Assembly: GCA_964016885.1 (NCBI GenBank)
Contig: OZ024752.1
Coordinates: 30,690,001-30,754,000, forward strand
Length of the DNA stretch: 64,000 nt
Source of the DNA: Eledone cirrhosa
Taxonomy: Eukaryota
Reading direction: 5' to 3'
The position numbers were made by a program, and so were the translations under genes. Every line of letters starts with the position of its first letter. Positions within the stretch are counted from its first letter, which is position 1. Below are positions 337 through 63,970 of this stretch, piece by piece. Below the pieces are notes generated by a model that worked only from the letters and a program-made list of their open reading frames with translations, was not told the DNA's origin and did not search any database.

Positions 337-2461
337 TCTTTAGTTTTTGCCAAGTTGACTTCAAGATCTTTTGATTCTAAGCCATGCTTCACAATTTGGA
401 ATTTCTTTAATTCAGTTATAAGGGTTACGGATTCCCCATGAGCAGCCAGTATTGCCTGGTTTACAATGCAAGTGACTATGGTGTGACCATCATTCCTGAT
501 GGTCTCAGCATCTCGGCAAGTATCCCCAGGTGTCCAACTGCCCTGCCTGTCTTCATATTCTTGATTGCCTTACTATACTACTGCTGACTTGAACAGTCAG
601 TGCCTCTGTTGGGTTGACTTGGGGCAAACTATTTTTATCTCATGCATTTTCTTCATTCAGTAATCTTTCACCATGGCACTTCCATGCTACTCTTTCAGCA
701 TCAATGAGTGAAAGTTCGGACACATTTCTCACAACCCCCTCTCCGACACACTGTCTTGTGATCCTGAACAACTTATACTTTTACTCCTCACGCTGCAAAA
801 CATGCTTAAATTTTTTTACTTTCTGCTTCCCTCTTGCAAGGTAAACATGTCACCTAGCTTCTCTTTTAACATCTGGTAGACTTCTCTACTATCCCCATTT
901 TACCATTCCTTCCATGCCAGTTTTTTTGCCCACTTTACTATTCCACTATCAAGCCACTTTCCTTCTCCCTAGAGACCTACTCCAACTACAGATTTCATTT
1001 GTTGCTTTCAGTAGCTTTTCTTTCAGGAGTCCATTGGTGACCTTGAGCAACGAGAAATAAAGTGTCTTGCTCAAGTACATAACACATTACCCAGTCTGAG
1101 AAATCAAACTTACAACCTCAAGATTGTGAATCTAATTCTATAACCACTAAGCCATGTATCTTTAATTCACATTACATGGGAGGAAATATTGTTAAGTGAT
1201 GGAGGAATAGTAGTATATTGGCTACTAATATTTTAGTGACTAGTGTTACCTGGCATATGATGGACAACATTGGGAATATATTTTTGCTACAGGTAATGTT
1301 ACATTAACACAATCATTATTTTATCTTTTATCTTTTATTTTTCATATTTCATCATGCTTATATAAAATAATGAAGCAAAACACAAATTTTCAAATTAAAA
1401 AATATTTATTAAATAAAATAAAATGACATTTGTATACTTACAATGAATACATTATCAACACACAATTCTGATCTGACATGTCTCACCCATGCTAGTGTGA
1501 AAAAATGAACATTAAACGAGGATGATGAAACTTGCAATAATTGTTTCTACGTTAGGCACAAGGCCAGCAATTACCCAGTGCATTACTGGTACTTTATTTT
1601 ATCGACCCCCGTAAGGATGAAAGGCAAAGTCAACCTCGGCGGGATTTGAAACTTGCAATGTTATTAATACACACACATTTCAAACGTTAAGCATCGAAGG
1701 ACTGAAGTCTGATCTCTCTCTTATATATATATGTCTTGCTCAAGGATGTGTTGTTTCCTTGAGCAAGACACTTTATTTCACATTGCTCCAGTTTACTCAG
1801 CTGTAGAAATGAGATGATAGGGACTGGGGTCCATATCATTCCACTGCAAAAAAGCACCCGTAGAAATCAAGCCAGAATCAGATCCCGTCACACCCTTGCA
1901 AGCAGGGAAAAAGCGGACGTAAAATGAAATGATATACTAGCAACAGTACCCAGCGTTGCCTGGGTAGGTAAAATAAAATCTGCTTTGATGAAAAGGTGTT
2001 GATCTTAGCGACTGCTTCTCGATGACTCATCTATGGCCACACACAAGCCATGTGGGGGAGGGTGGTGATGACCTCTATCACTGATAAACGCAGCATGCTG
2101 GGAGTGGGAGGTAATGACCTCTAACACTAAGCCAAATTTCCTCACGCTATTTGATTGGAAACCGATGAATTCTCAAATACACAACTAAAAGCTCAGACGA
2201 TGTCAGTGGCCATCGTTTTGCCTTTGACCATCTATAAAATGTGCAATGATAGGTTCTATCGTAGTATAAAAGTTGAACCAAATAAATTGATTTATGTGTG
2301 AGGTGGAGCCGAAGTTTCGAATTTGAACGAAATCGGTTGAAAAATGTGTGGGAGCTAGAGCCGAAAAGGTGGTATTTTTGAATATTTAAGCGGCTGCCAT
2401 GCCGTACCAACGAAGATAGTTTCAAATATGTCTTGTGTCATCAATATAGAACAAAATATTT

Positions 2462-3220
2462 TTAACGAAACATGTTAAGAGTTTTTAGTTTTTCGCATTC
2501 TAATACTTTTTTCATAATGCTGTCATACATAGGGTGACTTATGGCTCTCATGAAATTGTCGTTGTTAGTTCTGTGTAGCCAATGAGACTTCATATCCTGT
2601 TCAGTTCGAAATTTCTTGGAAGTGAAGATGTATGTCGGGTAGTTAAAAAGCGTTAGAGTTGTACCAGATTTAGATTTAAATGTTGGCTCTTCTTGTTGCA
2701 TATTATTATTTTTTGAAGTTGGTGGTTTTGGTGATAGTTCTGGTTTAGGTATATGTTCAAGCTGGCACCAATCGCTAAAATTTTCATTAATGTCGTCTAA
2801 ACCTGCGATTAAAACGTATCTCGGTGGTTGGCAGAAGTAATTTGCCATACTGCTTGGAAATTTAATTCTTTGGCATTCCGGAATAAATCTTCCAAGTTTA
2901 GTTGCCTTTTTGTATAAACTTCTAATGTATTTGAGTCGGTTTTCGCCTGGTCGTTGAGCGCTGTGCCACACTATATGAAAGTGATTAAATGCGTTCCATT
3001 CTTTTTTCGAACATATCAATGTATTTTTAGGATGATATATAACCGTCGCTTTTTGTAGTTGTATGAATTCTTTAATTTTATAGTTTGCATTGTTTTGGTA
3101 AGAGTCTTTATGGGTTTCGTCTTCGTTGTATGAGTTAATGTTTAACTCGTAATGTTTAATCGGCACTCATCCGTCATCCCATGAGAAATCGTTCGGCTGT
3201 ATCCATGGGTAGATACACAT
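2462..3220 (-). pseudogene. Endogenous parvovirus-like NS1/Rep N-terminal HUH endonuclease region, 3'-truncated
   Basis: ATG at 3220 (MCIYPWIQPNDFSWDDG*), an in-frame TGA at 3169-3167, then the 234-aa ORF containing the RCR motif II-like NHFHIVWH (HUH at 2983-2975) and a downstream Tyr candidate (ANYFCQPPR). The sequence ends near the Helitron junction (~2405) before any SF3 helicase Walker A motif. Confidence 0.65.
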
Positions 3221-3275
3221 GTATAATTGTTGTCCTGTGTTCTGAAATGGTAAATGGTTAAATTGTAATATTACT

Positions 3276-4806
3276 TTAACGATGTGCTTGCCTTGTTTTG
3301 CCGACTCTCGTTATTTCATAATTACGTAAACCCTGTGGCCATTTGCATAGGTTAGTCTTAGCTGAATTCATTATGGTTGCATTATTTGTTCCCCATGCCA
3401 TCCATACCATTGTTTGCGGACTTCCTGATATATATTCAAAATCAATTTCAGAATGGTAAGTAATTGTCATAATGAAAGATATTTTTGAAGGATTATTTTG
3501 TGAATCTAATATCGGTATTGAATCTAATTGGTGGTGGATTTACTGGAAATTGTGTTAAATGTGATCTACCCGTATTTTCCTCTTCCACTGATTTGTCTAT
3601 TGCTAAATCTTTGCTCCAAGTCCCGTCCCTTGTTGGTGCCCACGCTGATTTTTTCGCTCCTGAATATGTATTAATTTCACAGGGTAAACCGTTAGTTAAT
3701 TTTATTGTTGGTGGTTCGTAAGTTGTATTGAATGCATAATATCCCATCATTGAAAACCAACTCGGTGTTCTATTAACCCATGTATATGCTGCTGTATCTC
3801 CTGCGTATAAGAACTGAAAGTCCCCTGTATTTAGGTATGATAGTATTTCTTGTTCGTTCCCTGTCGCTTCTTTAGTATCTTGCCATAACCACCAATCTCT
3901 TCTTACTAATCTATTGCTCTCTATATTTGCTAATTTGCCTTTGTCCCTAGTTAACGGTATGTTATGTGTCCAGTTGTTATTTAAACGTGCTATGTTCCAA
4001 GTTTGATTTGAGTATAATGCGTATTTGTTGTCTATGTAATGTATCATCCATGGTCTAGTGATAAATGTAGTATTTGTCGTAGTGTTTTGTAATGTACCTA
4101 ATTCGTCTGTTAATGGTATTATGTTTGATATTTGGTATCCGCATGAAGTTGCTACATGGTGTTAAGTATGTTTCTAATTCTGCTATCGTCATACTTGCTT
4201 TTAACTCTGTGTAAGGTATTAAAGCTGCTCTATGTGCCATTTTTAATTGTATATATTCTGCATCGTGTTTTTTGTAATAGGCTTTATCTATCGGATTCTC
4301 AGAACAATTTATGTAATATGTAAATGTTCTAGAGAATTTTTTTGATACTATTGGATTTTTATCCCCTATGTCAGGTGGTTGATCCCCTTGTGCCATTGCT
4401 GCTGATCCCCCTGGTGCTGGTCCTACGTGTGGATCTCCCATTGTTGGTATTTCAACTATCCCACTATCTTGTGATGTTGCCGCGTTTAATAGATCTTGAT
4501 CTGATACTTCGCAATATTCTTCGTTTTTATGTGATTGTTCTTCTTGTTCTATTCTCTCTTTTTACCAGTCGGTGGCATTACAAAGTTTTTCCCTCTTATT
4601 ATATTCCTTACTAAGAACGCCGCTACTCCACTACTTTTTTTACTACACTCGATTAGTTTATTATCTGATTCTAATATATTAGTATCTTCCCTGCCGTATT
4701 CTATATCCTGTTCTCTGCAGCAATTATCTAAATCATTTATAGGTTTGTTGTCTAAATTTTGTGTGTATGGCCCACAATAATTATACCCTGGTAAATGTAA
4801 AGGCAT
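3276..4806 (-). pseudogene. Endogenous parvovirus/densovirus-like capsid gene (VP1 with PLA2 domain + VP2 body), frameshifted
   Basis: ORF 4806-4549 begins MPLHLPGYNYCGPY...PINDLDNCCREQDIEYG, matching the parvoviral VP1u PLA2 (Ca-loop YxGP; HDxxY here QDIEY). After one frameshift the frame RIEQEEQ...EIPTMGDPHVGPAPGGS continues into ORF 4441-4055 (Gly-rich N-terminus, SRTFTYYI, IPY), then ORFs 4047-3493 and 3470-3276. About 1.5 kb in total with roughly 3 frameshifts and no introns. Confidence 0.8.
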
Positions 4807-5606
4807 GATTACTTAACGAGAGTTCTGCCAACATCCTAGCATCTCTACATTTTAGGTCTTCGTAGCTCATGGTGATGGGTAGCGGAGTAACGGCGTTCTG
4901 TCTTGTGCGTGTAGTTCGTCTGTGGTAAAATGTAAAGCCACTTCAAGACGTAAAATAATCAGATCTAGCGTAGTGTAAAATTTGAACAAAGTAGGTTGAT
5001 TAATGTGGGAGCTAGAGCCGAAAAAATGGAAATTTGAGTCTAAAAGTGGTATTTTTGATTATTTAAGCGGCTGCCACGCCGTCCCTGAACAACAAATGCA
5101 AAATATAAAGCCACTACAGGATGTGCAATGATAAATTCTATTTTGTTTTAAAATTTGAACAAAATCGGTGGCAAAATGTGGGAGATAGAGCCAAAAATCT
5201 TATTTTTCGATACCTAAAAAAAGGTGACCCCTCCCCTATCGATTTTTATCTGCAGAATGACCCCGGAATAAAAAAAACGATACGCTGATATACTGTAAAT
5301 GTGGTTGGTGTTAGGAAGGGCATCCAGCCGTAGAAAGCCTGCCAGATAGTCCTATACGAGCGAGACACGGTTACCCGACCAACCTTGCCTCAAGTGGCAC
5401 AACTCCTGTCTAACCCATGGTAGCGTGGAAGATGGACGTTAAACGATGATGATGATGATGATATATAGAAAACACTCCCCGATGACTAATCTATGAGCCT
5501 GTAAAGTTTCATGAAAATCGGTCGTAAGATGTAAAATTAAGTGTGTGTGTGTGTGTGTGTCTGTGTATTACCTAGTATAGGTAATTCAGACACATACACT
5601 TAATTT

Positions 5607-5643
<37 letters not shown>

Positions 5644-16915: not shown

Positions 16916-17407
16916 AAATTTAATTACAGTATGTTTTCAGCTTATAATTAAAAGATAAATTTTGTTATGAGAACAGGCTATAATAGGTAATACTTCTCCA
17001 AGGATTGAACCTGGAATTACATGTTTGTGAAGCAAACTTTTTAATCATACATCCATGCAGTTGCTCATTGGTTCCTCTTTTATGTCTTCTTTGTTGAGAG
17101 GTCTTTTTAACTTGATTTTGAAATATAAAATTAAGGTTGGTGGATTTGCAGTAATGGGTAGAGCGTCAGACAACATGCTTTGTAGTATATAGTTACAGCT
17201 CTTTATGCCCTGAGTTCAAATCTTGCCGAGATTAACTTTGCTTTTCATTTCTATGAGATCGATAAAATAAAGTACCAGTAATGCACTGGAGTCAATTTAA
17301 TCAACTTTCCCCTCCCACCAAATTGTTAACTTTGTCCCAAAATCAGAAACCATTGTGAAATTGAAAATTTACTTTGTTTAATTTATAATTTTTAGGTAAA
17401 TTCCACC

Positions 17408-19921
17408 ATGGAAGATTCTTCAACTGGTTCTGTCCAGGAAGGAGAAAATCTTAATGATTTGCAACATTATCTAGTGAACTTTAATAAAGAAATTGGAGCT
17501 GATGTACCAACAGAGTTAGATGATACAGCAGTCGATGTGACAAACAGAGAGGAAGATGCTGTTTTTATTTCTACAACTGAAACTACATCTGTTGAAGGTA
17601 CAGAAATTGTTAATATGCAGGAATATTATACGCCACCAACTGCTATTCTAAATGCAGAAACAGAAGCTAATGACCATATATCTTGTGTTGAAACAGTTGA
17701 AGGACATTCTACTATAGAATTAGATCCTGTAGAAGCAGAGATTGTACATAAAATCTCTGATATTGTACAGAATGACCATCTCTCTGCTGTTCATGCTCAG
17801 CTTGCAGAATTATCTGGTAATCAGATTCAAGAATCTGGTTTTATTAATGGCTCTGAAATAACTGCAGAAGCGATAGCAAATAGTGAAAATGAGATTAATC
17901 GAATTATTCGTGTGGTTTCAGTACGTGGAGAGAAACATATGCATATAGAAGAAGCAAGTTTACAAGTGGTGTCTGAGGATTCTTCAAATCAACAAATACT
18001 TTCTTCCGGGGATTTAGGGGTTCAACAAATATCAGTTGATGACAGTGAAATAGTGACAGATGACAATACACAAACTATTATACGTCAAAATATTGACGGC
18101 ACTAACCCTGTGGCTGTTCTTGCCTCTGTTGCAGCTAATACTATGTGTGCTTCCTCTCACTTGCAGACAATGTCTGTTGGCTCATTGCCCACAGAAATCC
18201 ACAATGCACAGTTGGTAGCACTACAGAATTCAGAAGACAGTTCGCAGCCTCAGCTTGTTGCTGTTCAATCTGCAGATGGTGTTACGTCAGAAACATTACA
18301 TGTCATTGACAATTCTCAGGTTACTTCTTCCAACTCCTTCATTTTACCGACATCTGGCACAAATTACCAAACGGTAACTATTATGCCGTCTGATGGTAAT
18401 CGGAATGGGGAATTTAGTTATGTATTTATTGTGTCCCAGGGTGATGGGGATAAAGACTTATCTGTGTATGATTTCAAAGAAGAACCCCGAGAAATCACAG
18501 ACGAAATTATTGAAGAAGGTGGTACCACAAAACGAATTTTGAAAATAACTCCTAAAAAATTGTTCCAAACAAACCCAGCACAGCTAATGTGTCAGTATTG
18601 TAATTATACTAGTCCTAAACGGTATCTACTGACTAGACATATGAAATCACATTCTGAAGACCGACCACACAAATGTGATGTTTGTGGGCGTGGCTTCAAA
18701 ACAATGGCATCATTACAAAACCATCGAAATACTCACACTGGTACCCGACCCCACAAATGTAAGCAGTGTCATGCAGCATTTACCACTTCAGGAGAACTTG
18801 TGCGTCATGTAAGATATCGTCATACGTTTGAAAAACCTCATAAATGTTCTATGTGTGAGTATGCTAGTGTTGAGCTTAGTAAATTAAAGAGACATATGAG
18901 ATCACATACAGGAGAGAGGCCTTATCAATGTCAACACTGTTCATATGCATCACCCGACACTTACAAATTGAAGAGGCACTTACGGATACACACTGGTGAA
19001 AAACCATATGAATGTGACATCTGCCATGCTAAATTTACACAAAGTAACTCTCTCAAAGCTCACAAGCTTATTCATTCTGGCAATAAACCTGTATTTCAAT
19101 GTAACCTCTGCCCTACAACTTGTGGAAGAAAGACTGATCTTAAAATTCACATTCAAAAATTACATACAAGTGAAAAACCTCTTTGTTGTCGTAAATGTGG
19201 GAAAAATTACCTTGATCGGTATTCCTATAAATTACATATAAAAAGTCACGAAGGGGAAAAATGCTTTAAATGTGATCGCTGTGACTATGCAGCTTTATCT
19301 CAGCGCCATTTGGATAACCATTTACTAACTCATTCAGGAGAGAAACCTTTTGAATGTGATGAATGTGACCAATCATTTAGACAGAAACAGCTTCTAAAAC
19401 GACACAAGAACCTTTACCACACACCTAATTATACACCACCAAGGCCTAAAGAAAAAACTCATGAATGTACGGAATGTGATAAAAGTTTTGCCCACAAGGG
19501 TAATTTGATGCGACATCTCTCTTATCACGATTCCGAAGATGAAACAACACCCAAGGAATGTGTAAATAAATTATCTCCTAGTCCTCATGTTCATCTTACA
19601 GCTCAGCAGCTTTTACAAAGCAGTTTATTATCTGATCTTCGGGACAGTAAACTGGGTCCTGGTCGTTTACCTCAAGTGGTTCTTGTCCATCCTGATGGGC
19701 GTGTTGAAGAGGTTACTTCAAAGTTAGAGAAAGTACATGATGCTGAACAGGTTGATACATTTAGTTCACATAACCAAGAAAAGAGTATGGATGATATATT
19801 ATTAGCTATGGAAGTCACTGCTGAAGCTATGAACAATACTGACACTTCAACTTTAAATTCTGAGGGGATTCAAATATTAAATACACCTGATGCTATTAAT
19901 AGAATTACTGAAGTTAGTCAG
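17408..19921 (+). CDS. CTCF: CTCF, main coding exon (N-terminus with YDF motif, 11 C2H2 zinc fingers, start of C-terminus)
   Basis: Acceptor at 17395, Kozak CCACCATGG, 838 codons, donor CAG|GTAAGG at 19921/2. Eleven fingers at 18584-19528 with CTCF-diagnostic helices (FTTSGELVRHVRYRHT, ASVELSKLKRH, ASPDTYKLKRH, FTQSNSLKAH, FRQKQLLKRH). LSVYDFKEE at 18458-18484. Confidence 0.96.
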
Positions 19922-21950
19922 GTAAGGATCATATTTATTTATTCTTTATTTTTTATTCTTTTGTCAAATCAGGAACATATACTGAGATATGTTCCTGATT
20001 TGGTCCTTAAAAAAGGGTCTATTTGATTGAGTAGGTCACTGAGAATGTGATTCCCAGTGTGGGCGCATGCTCTACAGGGGTGGGGTGGAGGACGATTTGA
20101 AAATGATTTTGATGAGAACAAACTTCAGGTTTTACCTTATTACTTTTACACAAAGGCAGCTTTGGTACACATTTCTGTTGAAAACTCCTGTCTCACCTCC
20201 TCCATACTTTATTGGGCATCTGGCACCACGTATATGCCAATTTGTACAAAATTGGGTATAAAACTTAATTTGTTTTCATATCAAAAGGGTGCATAGCAAT
20301 TTTTGAGATGTTGAGATGGGGTATGGTGCACAAAAGGTTGGGAACCATTGGGGTAAAATAAATAGTAATTGATCGATCGATCGACAAGTTCCCAAGCCTC
20401 ACAACTCCTGGCAGAAAGAGCAACGTAAAATAAAGTGTCTTGCTCAAGGACATACTGTATTGTCCAGTCTTCCAGGTTGCAGATTATATATTTTTTTTAT
20501 AGTATTATCTGTTTATATAAATAATGTTGAAGGTTGTTATTAAGCCAAGATTTTGGGTATGTGCTTAATTCATTTCAAAAATCTACTTTCAAACTTTGTA
20601 TGATGTCTTCATTCACCATGTCAGGTTCTTTTGTGTCTATCTCATTGTGTGACTGTTGTGTGATGCCATTGGGTCATGCATTAAGGCTGTCACAGTTAAA
20701 CTTCAGCTGTTGTGTCTTATTGATTGTCTCTTGGGTGGTGGCTTAATTTTAGAATGTATAGTCAAAGAGGTGCACCATAAACATAGTTCTTAAGCATAAA
20801 TAAAAAAATGCTTACTTAGATAGGAATAGAACATAGAATTCCTTCCTTAAATCTCAAAAATCTGGGACAAGATGTGTTGCGATTTGTTCTCCACTTCCAA
20901 CCTTGTCGCTTTGACTTCAAACCTGAATATATCGGTGTATAATAATGATAACTCAGACAAAAAAAAATTATGTGTGTGTATTATATATATATATATATAT
21001 ATATATCAGCATCATTTCAGTATGAACTTAACCCTGTTGGCATGGGTTAACCTTTAGCATTTAAACCGGCCACTCATATTGACGTTATGGTATTGTTCTC
21101 AAAATAAATGACAACATTTCATAGATTCAATATTATGTGAGATAATTATGTAAGATAAAGCCTTTACCACAAAAATATAATAGTATATTTAGAGTAATGT
21201 AAATGCTAAAGGGTTAAACAAGGTATTTTGTGGTAGAGATCAACTGCTGGATGCACTTAATCCTTTTATCAGTTTGTTTTTAAGTAAGATATTTATTCTA
21301 CTGAGCTGCAGTATATAGACAAATGTCACTGGTGGTCCAGGTAGTGTTAATGTATTGACAAGTAGTAAGTGACTGGTTGCTCAGGTAGTGTTAATGTGAT
21401 GACAGGTAGTAATGAAACACACACATCGTCATCATCATTATTCAACCTCCATTTGACCTGTTAGCAACGGTTGGATGGCACCATCACATTTTTTTTTGTC
21501 ATATTTTGTATGTATAAAACCTTTTATATTACATTCTTTACTTACCTTTTTTTTTTAACCTGTAACACCTGAGAGATTTGTAGGGACACCTCATTTATAT
21601 ACAGCATTTCTAGGACATTTTAAAACCTGGCGGGTCTCCTCTCTGGAAGATATATTGTGTTACATATTCATAAATGTGTTAATACAGGACAGAAATATAG
21701 TACAGTTATACCCCGGTATTCACGGAGATCACATTCCTAGAGCACCCACAAAGAGTGAAAAACTGCAAATATTGGATGTGGTCCATAAAAATGCCTATAA
21801 ACGTCAAAACATAATGTAAAATATAGGCTGGTAAATACAGTATATTGTTACTAATAATTCAGCGTTAAAAAGCACGAAAAAATATATATTGCCACAAAAA
21901 AGCAATAAAATATTGCAGAAGATATTTATTAAAGAAAGAGCAATAATAAT

Positions 21951-61703: not shown

Positions 61704-63970
61704 TGTTTCTTTTATTTGCCACCAGGGCATCAAAAGTGGGACAAGTACAAAGGGGGGAGTTTACACAAAAAGGCGTCCTCAATAAGGAGGAGGCAATAAC
61801 AATGTATAAAAATAAAATAAAATATAACAAAAAATAAAATTTATAACAAAGTCCTCAATAGAGAGGAGGCGCCTTGGGGGGGTCGCACACACCCCCGAAA
61901 AAAGTGCGCAACCCTTTTCCTCAGGAGCACAGAGAGGGGGTGCTCCCTCGTTCCTTCCTCTTTTCCACCTACAGGCTTATGTAAAGAGAAGGCCCATTCA
62001 CACGGGCCATTCTCGCCACTTTCACCCACCTTTCATAAAAACGACTGGGGTGGAGCACCTCTCTCTCCATCCTGATCCTTCTTCCGAAATGATATCGGAA
62101 GAAACGGACCAGTTGTTGGCCAGAGAGAAAGGTGCCTGACCTCAGTCCTTTCAGACGCGTCCACCATACAATTTCTTTCACCATGGCTATTACGCACAGA
62201 AACACCGCCTCTCCTTCATCTTTGAAGGGGGGAGGCGGCTTGATCATTACAATAGACTCGGTGGTCAACTGGATCGGTCCCACCCTTGACAGCAGTTGTT
62301 CGATATAGCCCCACAGATCGGCTACGCCCGAGCAGTGTACCAATGCGTGTGAAACGGTTTCCTCGTCGCACACGCATCTGGGACAGATCTTTTTGGCGGG
62401 GTCCCTACCCGGGCGCCCGTGTCTGTAGAGCTTTTCTCGAACGGGTAGAGCCCCTCGGTAGCACTGCCAGGCCAGGGACTTCTGGAAGTTGTCCATAGGT
62501 CCCGGGCTGAATGTCCTACCGAACAGGCTGGCCAGTTCGTCCTCCTCCATGTCTAGGGCTTCTCCGAGGGCGTCGTCGCACCTGCTGCGTACCAGCCCTC
62601 TATAGAATGTTGCGGTGGAGTCTCCACTGATAACCGGATCCGCCTGCCAGAGGGTGGTGAGCGCCTGGGCACACTCAGTGTGCCAGGCGCCCAGTTTTCT
62701 CGGTCTTTGCTTGACCCAGGATTGCAGCTCGGTGAGTGAGACGAGTCTGGGAAAGCTTCGTCTCACAAACGAGGCCCACACCGGTTGACCGGTGAGGAAT
62801 ACGTAGAGGTGCCGTAGCCTTAATGCGTGTTTACGCATCATTAGCCACGGCATCCCCAGCCCTCCTTTCGAAGGGTGTTGACAGCAGATGGATCTCCTTA
62901 CCATAGGAGCCCGCCTCTTCCAAAGGAATTGGAAGAGCGCGCGCTCCATCTTGGTTAGGGTTTCCCTTGGGCAGGGCACTACGGTCAGGCGGTAGTAGAT
63001 GACGGACGCTATATAGGTGTTCGCCACCTCCGCCCGACCTTTCAGGGATAGTTTGCAACTGGCCCACTTCTGGGTCAGTGCAAACACCCTGTTCGTAACC
63101 TCCGCCCAGTTTTTCTCCACCTGGAGGCCCGTCCGAACCAGATCCCGAGCAACTTCACCGGGCCCTCCGTCCAGCGTCCGACGACGCCATCGGAGGGCAT
63201 CGGTCTGCCCCTCCACGTGCCGAGTTGCAAACCGATCGACTTGTCCCGGTTCAGCTTAGTCCCTGTGAACCTTTCGTACTCCTCCAGTAAGGTGCCGACC
63301 GCCTCGATTTCGGAGGCCGTCTACACCATTACTGTCACGTCATCGGCGTAGGCCGACACCGCTTTCCGTAATCCCGGTTCCAAAGAGATGCCCTGCAACA
63401 ACTCCAACTTCCGCAGTAGTGGCTCGAGAGTCAACACATACAAAAGGGAGGAGAGAGGGCACCCTTGTCGGATGGACCGCGCGATTTTGAACGGCTCCGA
63501 GAGGTAGCCGTTCCCCTTGACTCTAGAGCAGATGCGGTCGCTGTGCATAGCAGTGATCCAGCCCCTGAAAACGGGTCCGAAGCCTGCCGCCGCTAGCACC
63601 GCATCCAGGTAACCATGGTCGACCCTATCGAACGCCTTAGATTGATCCAAGTTGATCAGAGCCCCACCAAAGCCGGGTTCGTTCCCAACCCTCTCTATGA
63701 TGTATCGCATGAGGTGGAGGTTGTCATGGATGGACCTGGACGGGATAGCGCATGTCTGTGCATCTCCCACCAGGTTGCCCACGACAAGCGCCAACCTCTT
63801 TGCTAGCACCTTGGCCAAAATCTGTAACTCTGTATTTAGCAGGGCCTGAAGTTACTTATTTCGTCCCCCTTGTTCTCGTCCTTCCTCACTAGCGTGACTA
63901 TGCCCTTGGTCACAGTACAGGGAATTCTCCCGTTCTGTTGCCAGTTGCAGTAGACCGCCTCGAGGAGATC
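61704..63970 (-). mobile_element. 5'-truncated Tx1/L1-clade LINE with a perfect 14-bp TSD
   Basis: GGTTTCATAAGATA at 61690-61703 and 63971-63984. Markedly GC-richer than the host. Minus-strand AATAAA near the 3' end (~61716-61711). Confidence 0.92.
61969..63960 (-). pseudogene. LINE ORF2 fragment: reverse transcriptase and C-terminal zinc-binding domain, frameshifted
   Basis: RT motifs LINLDQSKAFDRVDH, IRQGCPLS and AYADD (63818-63321); LSLKGR, KGGLG and CPRC...ETVSHALVHC (63216-61969). The frame breaks near 63320-63220 and 63850. Confidence 0.9.

What the first reader, a model, noticed from the sequence alone, without database searches (positions are those of the whole stretch)
1937..5642. 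Helitron-like element that has captured a parvovirus/densovirus-like genome segment
Seen: canonical Helitron termini on the minus strand (7-bp hairpin + CTAG|T at 1937-1966; A|TC at 5642) bracket about 2.5 kb (~2405-4930) of intronless capsid and Rep-like sequence in the same orientation, with related element-internal blocks on both sides of the cargo. Established: Helitrons capture foreign DNA, and both Helitrons and parvoviruses replicate through HUH-endonuclease-initiated ssDNA intermediates. Inference: the viral DNA entered, or was amplified in, the germline inside a rolling-circle transposon, which would be a route of endogenisation and possibly a source of antiviral piRNAs.
Basis: partly seen in the sequence, partly recalled or inferred. 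Interest (0 to 1): 0.85.

Follow-up and report, generated by a model that had tools for sequence, protein, structure and literature searches.

The report
Backwards parvovirus fossil inside a Helitron
A broken piece of a parvovirus sits once inside one copy of a very common rolling-circle transposon and was not spread by it; the more unusual fact is that the virus family, inserted at about 30 places in this likely octopus genome, has its capsid gene before its replication gene, predicted to lie inside an intron of it.

Summary
The anatomy is real; capture and spread by the Helitron is not supported. 1937-5642 is one copy of a ~1-kb non-autonomous Helitron family (1,132 3' ends genome-wide). Empty copies join the two arms directly. 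The insert, 2409-4926, is a truncated parvovirus piece: a PLA2-bearing capsid gene with three frameshifts, then the 5' half of NS1. Both junctions occur once in the genome. None of 40 other stretches with related viral DNA carries these arms. One more copy sits inside a different, coding Helitron, about what chance predicts.

The novel part is the virus. Related copies have hairpin ends and the order VP then NS1 on one strand; a review says all parvoviruses put NS left and VP right. An 18-codon mini-exon with a splice donor before VP and an in-frame acceptor just after the VP stop are conserved, predicting that VP lies in an NS1 intron. This is untested in RNA. The scan's earlier notes held nothing on it.

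The parts
1937..1966 (-). Helitron 3' end: 7-bp hairpin (1947-1966) and CTAG, followed by T of the AT target
   Evidence: 1,132 matches at up to 1 mismatch, 0 for the reversed control
1937..2408 (-). 3' arm of the non-autonomous Helitron copy, including part of its ~170-nt subrepeats
   Evidence: median 94.9% to 29 other copies; 1,725 first-look candidates
2397..2408 (.). Left junction: short imperfect similarity between Helitron and viral NS1 sequence; about 14 nt of the Helitron missing at the site; no target duplication
   Evidence: junction unique
2409..3241 (-). Parvoviral NS1, 5' half: HUH-like HFHIVW motif, in-frame stop(s), a 71-nt internal deletion near 2470 relative to copy L076, cut off before the helicase Walker A
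3242..3275 (-). VP-NS1 spacer ending in a predicted splice acceptor (pyrimidine-rich, CAG) in the NS1 frame
   Evidence: same position in 14 of 14 rows, 10 distinct copies
3276..4806 (-). Capsid gene VP1 with N-terminal PLA2; broken by three frameshifts (near 4565, 4146, 3527)
   Evidence: capsid-like
4811..4870 (-). 18-codon mini-exon and predicted splice-donor position; the donor is degenerate in this copy
   Evidence: GTRAGT in 9 of 11 distinct copies
4871..4926 (-). Viral leader remnant; the TATA box and left hairpin seen in related copies are absent here
   Evidence: right junction unique
4927..5292 (-). 5' arm of the Helitron copy (subrepeats)
   Evidence: median 94.4% to other copies; 1,757 candidates
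5293..5459 (+). SINE-like repeat inserted in this Helitron copy, with (GAT)n tail and 6-7-bp target duplication
   Evidence: absent from the empty copies; flanks; relatives elsewhere in the window
5460..5642 (-). Helitron 5' end (A|TC, microsatellite), with a short local inverted duplication not seen in the empty copies

Best explanation
A truncated parvovirus fragment sits in one copy of an abundant non-autonomous Helitron, likely pasted in passively during repair of a DNA break, and the composite has not been copied elsewhere in this genome. Shown: single copy, about 14 nt of Helitron lost, no target duplication, both viral ends cut, a short imperfect similarity at the left join and 2 nt shared at the right. 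Inferred: end-joining repair with viral replication intermediates in a germ cell, followed by neutral decay. The fragment is one of about 30 insertions, mostly independent, of a parvovirus lineage with hairpin ends and the order VP then NS1. In it, one left promoter is predicted to give VP from unspliced RNA and NS1 by splicing an 18-codon mini-exon across the whole capsid gene.
For: Junctions unique. All 34 first-look candidates of the cargo search were scored; none outside the window exceeds 86% over a long stretch. The window copy has its own branch in both trees. 0 of 40 other viral stretches carry these arms. Related copies lie beside LINE-type RT, LTR-type pol and IS4-type transposase frames. 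One sits in a coding Helitron and replaces about 26 nt of its Rep motif, with empty copies elsewhere: the same delete-and-fill pattern in another family. Helitrons make up 0.7-3.7% of two octopus genomes (PMC6279123, passage), so 0.2-1.2 of about 33 places are expected in one by chance; 1 unselected case was seen. The genome has 3,704 Helitron Rep candidates. VP-then-NS1 order holds in every stretch where both genes adjoin, except L089, which is rearranged. Hairpin ends and fold-back joins. Splice signals.
Against: One copy cannot exclude uptake during Helitron transposition (filler-DNA capture, recalled) followed by no further spread. A second virus-in-Helitron case exists. The flank survey would miss other non-coding Helitron families, and several NS1 matches were not fetched. 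The Helitron share of this genome was not measured. Splicing is unverified, and NS1 has methionines just after the acceptor that could serve an internal promoter. Gene order in free relatives was not seen.
Confidence: 0.78

Rival explanations
1. Real Helitron capture without spread: viral single-stranded DNA was joined in while this Helitron was a transposition intermediate, so the Helitron carried it into the germline once.
For: The cargo is internal, with both Helitron ends intact and the same orientation. There is a short similarity at the left join. A second case lies in another Helitron family.
Against: Nothing distinguishes it from insertion into a resident copy. Most related insertions have no detected Helitron. 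This copy also took a SINE-like insertion and is as diverged as its family (about 95%), as a resident target would be.
Confidence: 0.15
2. Capture followed by transposition: the composite has moved as a unit.
For: Intact termini; coding Helitrons with long open frames exist in the genome.
Against: One copy of each junction; no near-identical cargo elsewhere.
Confidence: 0.03
3. Viral NS1 nicks Helitron sequence (shared HUH chemistry), so these viruses integrate into Helitrons preferentially.
For: 2 of about 34 places lie in Helitrons.
Against: One of the two was the reason this window was picked. The two sites share no evident sequence. The count fits chance at a 0.7-3.7% Helitron share.
Confidence: 0.04

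Closest known systems
Endogenous parvoviral elements next to transposable elements in invertebrates (PMC5013282, passages read)
   Same: Degraded NS and VP fragments in invertebrate genomes, some beside transposons; molluscs are among the hosts.
   Different: 'Octopus' has 0 occurrences in that main text (supplements not seen). No VP-first order in the passages read.
Helitron gene capture
   Same: Foreign DNA lies between the 5' TC and the 3' hairpin-CTAG.
   Different: Captured cargo is normally shown by several copies with the same junctions; here there is one.
Teratorn, a piggyBac-herpesvirus fusion (PMC10175614, abstract start and passages)
   Same: A virus inside a DNA transposon.
   Different: Teratorn is an amplified functional fusion; this is one broken fragment in a non-coding element.
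Penaeus monodon metallodensovirus, PmMDV (PDB 6wh3; review PMC11357303, passages)
   Same: Best solved-structure hit of the capsid body by sequence (E 5e-8, 57 residues); ~4-kb genome with hairpin ITRs.
   Different: PmMDV lacks PLA2, which this VP has. Its gene map could not be read (primary paper not held), so its order was not compared.
SwaBA megaparvovirus lineage (PMC13426907, sections 3 and 17 read)
   Same: Atypical organisation, a PLA2 frame 5' of NS1, predicted splice donors, EVEs that point to the host.
   Different: There the capsid gene still follows NS1, and the genome is ~6.4 kb with four frames; here the whole VP precedes NS1 in ~4 kb.

Membership tests
Helitron (non-autonomous) | 5' TC | tested here: met
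   window; 22 of 25 copies have TC, 21 with A before it
Helitron (non-autonomous) | 3' hairpin plus CTRR | tested here: met
   CTAG in 26 of 29 copies; 1,132 matches
Helitron (non-autonomous) | insertion between A and T, no terminal inverted repeats | tested here: met
   A before the 5' end in 21 of 25, T after the 3' end in 27 of 29, at unrelated flanks; empty orthologous sites not seen
Helitron (non-autonomous) | autonomous RepHel partner with the same ends | tested here: inconclusive
   0 of 12 coding loci share its sequence; 1 of 12 (L167) has a like 3' hairpin with a paired two-sided change, then CTAG|T
Helitron-captured, mobilised cargo | several cargo-bearing copies with identical junctions | tested here: not met
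   1 match each; 0 of 40 stretches
Parvoviridae-derived element | NS1 with SF3 helicase and HUH motif | tested here: met
   Parvo_NS1 in 5 of 5 NS1 frames of related copies; HxH motif in alignment; the window copy is cut before the helicase
Parvoviridae-derived element | capsid protein with VP1 PLA2 | tested here: met
   PF08398; PmMDV and AAV capsid hits; Atlas first hit Denso_VP4-type at 0.95
Parvoviridae-derived element | jelly-roll fold | tested here: inconclusive
   model pLDDT 45; best Foldseek E 5e-3 to a densovirus capsid; 9 of the top 9 are parvoviral capsids, none at E <= 0.001
Parvoviridae-derived element | terminal hairpins, about 4-6 kb | tested here: met
   in related copies: branched hairpin, -78 kcal/mol, and about 4 kb between ends; absent from the window fragment
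Parvoviridae, canonical gene map | NS left, VP right (PMC11357303) | tested here: not met
   VP precedes NS1 on the same strand
Any named parvovirus genus | NS1 at least 35-40% identical over 80% coverage to a member | tested here: inconclusive
   best named viral hit is an uncultured densovirus NS1, 34% over 29%; no family-wide tree built
piRNA-producing EVE | small RNAs from the cargo | not testable with these tools
   no RNA holder listed

The most novel reading that the evidence does not exclude
The fragment belongs to an undescribed cephalopod parvovirus lineage whose ~4-kb hairpin-ended genome is arranged VP then NS1, with the entire capsid gene nested in an intron of NS1, so that one splice choice switches between replication and capsid output. 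The lineage has entered the germline dozens of times, in part very recently.
Probability: 0.55. Interest if true: 0.68.

Novelty: new variant of a known kind. Interest (0 to 1): 0.5.

Why it matters
As a Helitron story it is ordinary: one viral fragment landed in one of more than a thousand copies. As a virus story it matters more. A review states that all parvoviruses have NS on the left and VP on the right, and this lineage reverses that. It predicts a splice-controlled switch that one RNA-seq library could test. It also gives a likely host group for unnamed ~4-kb contigs that carry related capsids, and a set of germline insertions of differing ages in a group where my searches found no endogenous parvovirus paper.

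Tried and rejected
Assembly chimera: rejected. Cargo as a discrete element with fixed ends: the shared end points were only the limits of my query; other copies run on into the helicase and the hairpins. VP-then-NS1 as a concatemer or circular-permutation artefact: rejected, because only about 34 nt with no hairpin lie between the VP stop and NS1, the hairpins lie outside the pair, and the order holds across copies 66-86% identical. Direct terminal repeats on the virus: the repeats around L069, L070 and L074 look like duplicated host DNA. Autonomous partner: none in 12 loci. Relatives with DNA context: none in viral contigs or metagenome contigs, so gene order in free relatives is unseen. The N-terminus of ENA relative P0010 gave no sign of upstream VP. 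Fold: low confidence. Runs: no RNA holder listed. X6 is RAD-seq with almost no cover of the cargo, and X5 (another organism) shows the Helitron family but only scattered viral pieces; neither tests presence of the insertion. Literature: searches gave 0 papers; one search gave 7 and one search gave 1, none reporting this in what I read; one search was too loose to be useful; one search was wasted by a wrong year bound, so no search on PmMDV's gene map was made. Subscription papers and supplements were not seen, so 'undescribed' is provisional.

Full report
Observation. The window is G000:C12:30690001-30754000 of a 3.0-Gb genome. The host is likely an octopus; this is inferred from the nearest named relatives of the viral proteins, which are annotated in Octopus vulgaris and O. 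bimaculoides. The left arm found 1,725 first-look candidates and the right arm 1,757, of which 40 each were scored. A 30-nt pattern of the 3' end has 1,132 matches, against 0 for the reversed control. In 26 of 29 fetched copies the right arm follows the left arm directly. CTAG ends 26 of 29, T follows 27 of 29, and A|TC starts 21 of 25 (tallied by hand). So this is a ~1-kb non-autonomous Helitron family. One of 12 coding Helitron loci has a like 3' hairpin, but none shares the body, so the partner is not identified. The similar blocks on both sides of the cargo are the family's own subrepeats, and 5293-5459 is a SINE-like insertion private to this copy. The copy is about 95% identical to its family, as family members are to each other (93-95%).

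Cargo. It spans 2409-4926 and replaces about 14 nt of the Helitron, with no target duplication. On the minus strand it holds a capsid gene with PLA2, broken by three frameshifts, and then the 5' half of NS1 with an HUH-like motif, one or two stops and a 71-nt deletion; it ends before the helicase. At the left join the viral alignment runs about 12 nt into the Helitron; at the right join 2 nt are shared. Independent contigs reproduce the cargo without differences and bridge the left join in a second sample of the same study; the right join is crossed with only 25 nt.

Was it mobilised? No. Each junction has one match in the genome. The cargo search gave 57 matches from 34 candidates, all scored; long matches are 66-86% identical, and the window copy has its own branch. 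None of 40 fetched stretches with related viral DNA (L061-L090 and L114-L123; about 33 distinct places, as some overlap) carries these arms. Several further NS1 matches were not fetched. A Pfam scan of 114 flanking frames found RT, LTR-type pol, IS4-type transposase and other parvoviral NS1. One place, L075, lies inside the Rep gene of another Helitron family (PF14214 on both sides, E 6e-14 and 2e-4; 440 candidates) and replaces about 26 nt that the 11 empty copies compared retain. With Helitrons at 0.7-3.7% of two octopus genomes (PMC6279123, passage), 0.2-1.2 such cases are expected among 33 places, and one unselected case was seen. My survey would miss other non-coding Helitron families. 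Most likely mechanism (inferred): repair of a chromosome break in a resident Helitron with viral DNA as filler. Uptake during transposition without later spread cannot be excluded.

The virus family. Related copies carry a 524-540-aa VP frame followed on the same strand by a ~560-aa NS1 frame with an SF3 helicase. The order holds wherever both genes adjoin, except the rearranged L089. Outside the pair lie hairpin ends that share an inverted motif, plus head-to-head and tail-to-tail fold-backs as expected of rolling-hairpin intermediates. Before VP there is a TATA-like motif in 8 of 11 distinct copies and an 18-codon frame followed in phase by GTRAGT in 9 of 11. The donor columns are kept in 9-11 of 11 copies, against a mean of 7.8 at third codon positions; the copies were picked by the first 14 nt of the frame, not by the donor. 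After the VP stop a pyrimidine-rich YAG lies at the same in-frame position in 14 of 14 rows, 10 of them distinct. This predicts NS1 as mini-exon plus second exon with all of VP in the intron, and VP from unspliced RNA by leaky scanning. It is not shown in RNA, and an internal NS1 promoter is the alternative. The capsid's best solved relative by sequence is PmMDV; the fold model was poor. NS1 relatives occur in O. vulgaris (61%), O. bimaculoides (72%) and unnamed long contigs (32-46%). Full-length VP relatives sit on unnamed ~4-kb contigs. Gene order in those relatives was not seen.

Comparison and novelty. EVEs beside transposons are known (PMC5013282, passages), so the nested fragment is ordinary, and the test for mobilised cargo failed. 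For the gene map, PMC11357303 (passage) says all parvoviruses have NS left and VP right. Atypical maps in PMC13426907 (sections 3 and 17) and PMC9896142 (passages) keep VP after or opposite NS1. Searches turned up no report of this lineage or order in what I read; the PmMDV paper was not held, and supplements were not seen. Helitron capture models are recalled, not read. Verdict: observation confirmed, capture-and-spread not supported, and a likely new parvovirus genome layout found on the way. Interest 0.5.

Noticed in passing
L064-L068 (C14:8.50 Mb, C5:102.83 Mb, C998, C10:49.49 Mb): One viral strain, 98-100% identical, at four places with different flanks and truncations, in inverted concatemers: very recent repeated integration or local amplification.
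   Followed up: partly
L075:4247-6751: Internally deleted viral copy with both ends, inside the Rep gene of a coding Helitron family; an independent second virus-in-Helitron case.
   Followed up: yes
L069, L070, L074: Viral copies flanked by long direct duplications of apparent host DNA (about 370, 150 and 80-200 nt); L069 and L070, 8 kb apart, share a flanking repeat motif.
   Followed up: no
L069:3-1604, L070:8405-10000, L072:5695-6402: A second, distant parvovirus-like NS1 family (about 25% identity) lies next to these copies, suggesting clusters of viral insertions.
   Followed up: no
L076:7243-8533; L083:107-2380: Pieces of VP (80-nt unit) and of the NS1 end (108-nt unit) expanded into tandem arrays on C27.
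   Followed up: no
L061:7354-7874: A second, diverged (71%) copy of the viral 5' region directly upstream of the main copy: two strains at one site.
   Followed up: no
G000 C20:3.5-5.2 Mb, C27:13-15.5 Mb, C19:35-40 Mb: Near-identical Helitron Rep copies recurring at roughly 100-170-kb spacing, as if inside a very large tandem unit.
   Followed up: no
window 5534-5610: Short fold-back duplication near the Helitron 5' end, absent from the empty copies.
   Followed up: no
window 17396-20023 (+): 876-aa single open frame with many C2H2 zinc fingers.
   Followed up: no
window 33800-38500: Large microsatellite-derived array with long inverted arms.
   Followed up: no
window 61972-63851 (-): Broken LINE-type reverse transcriptase frames.
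   Followed up: no
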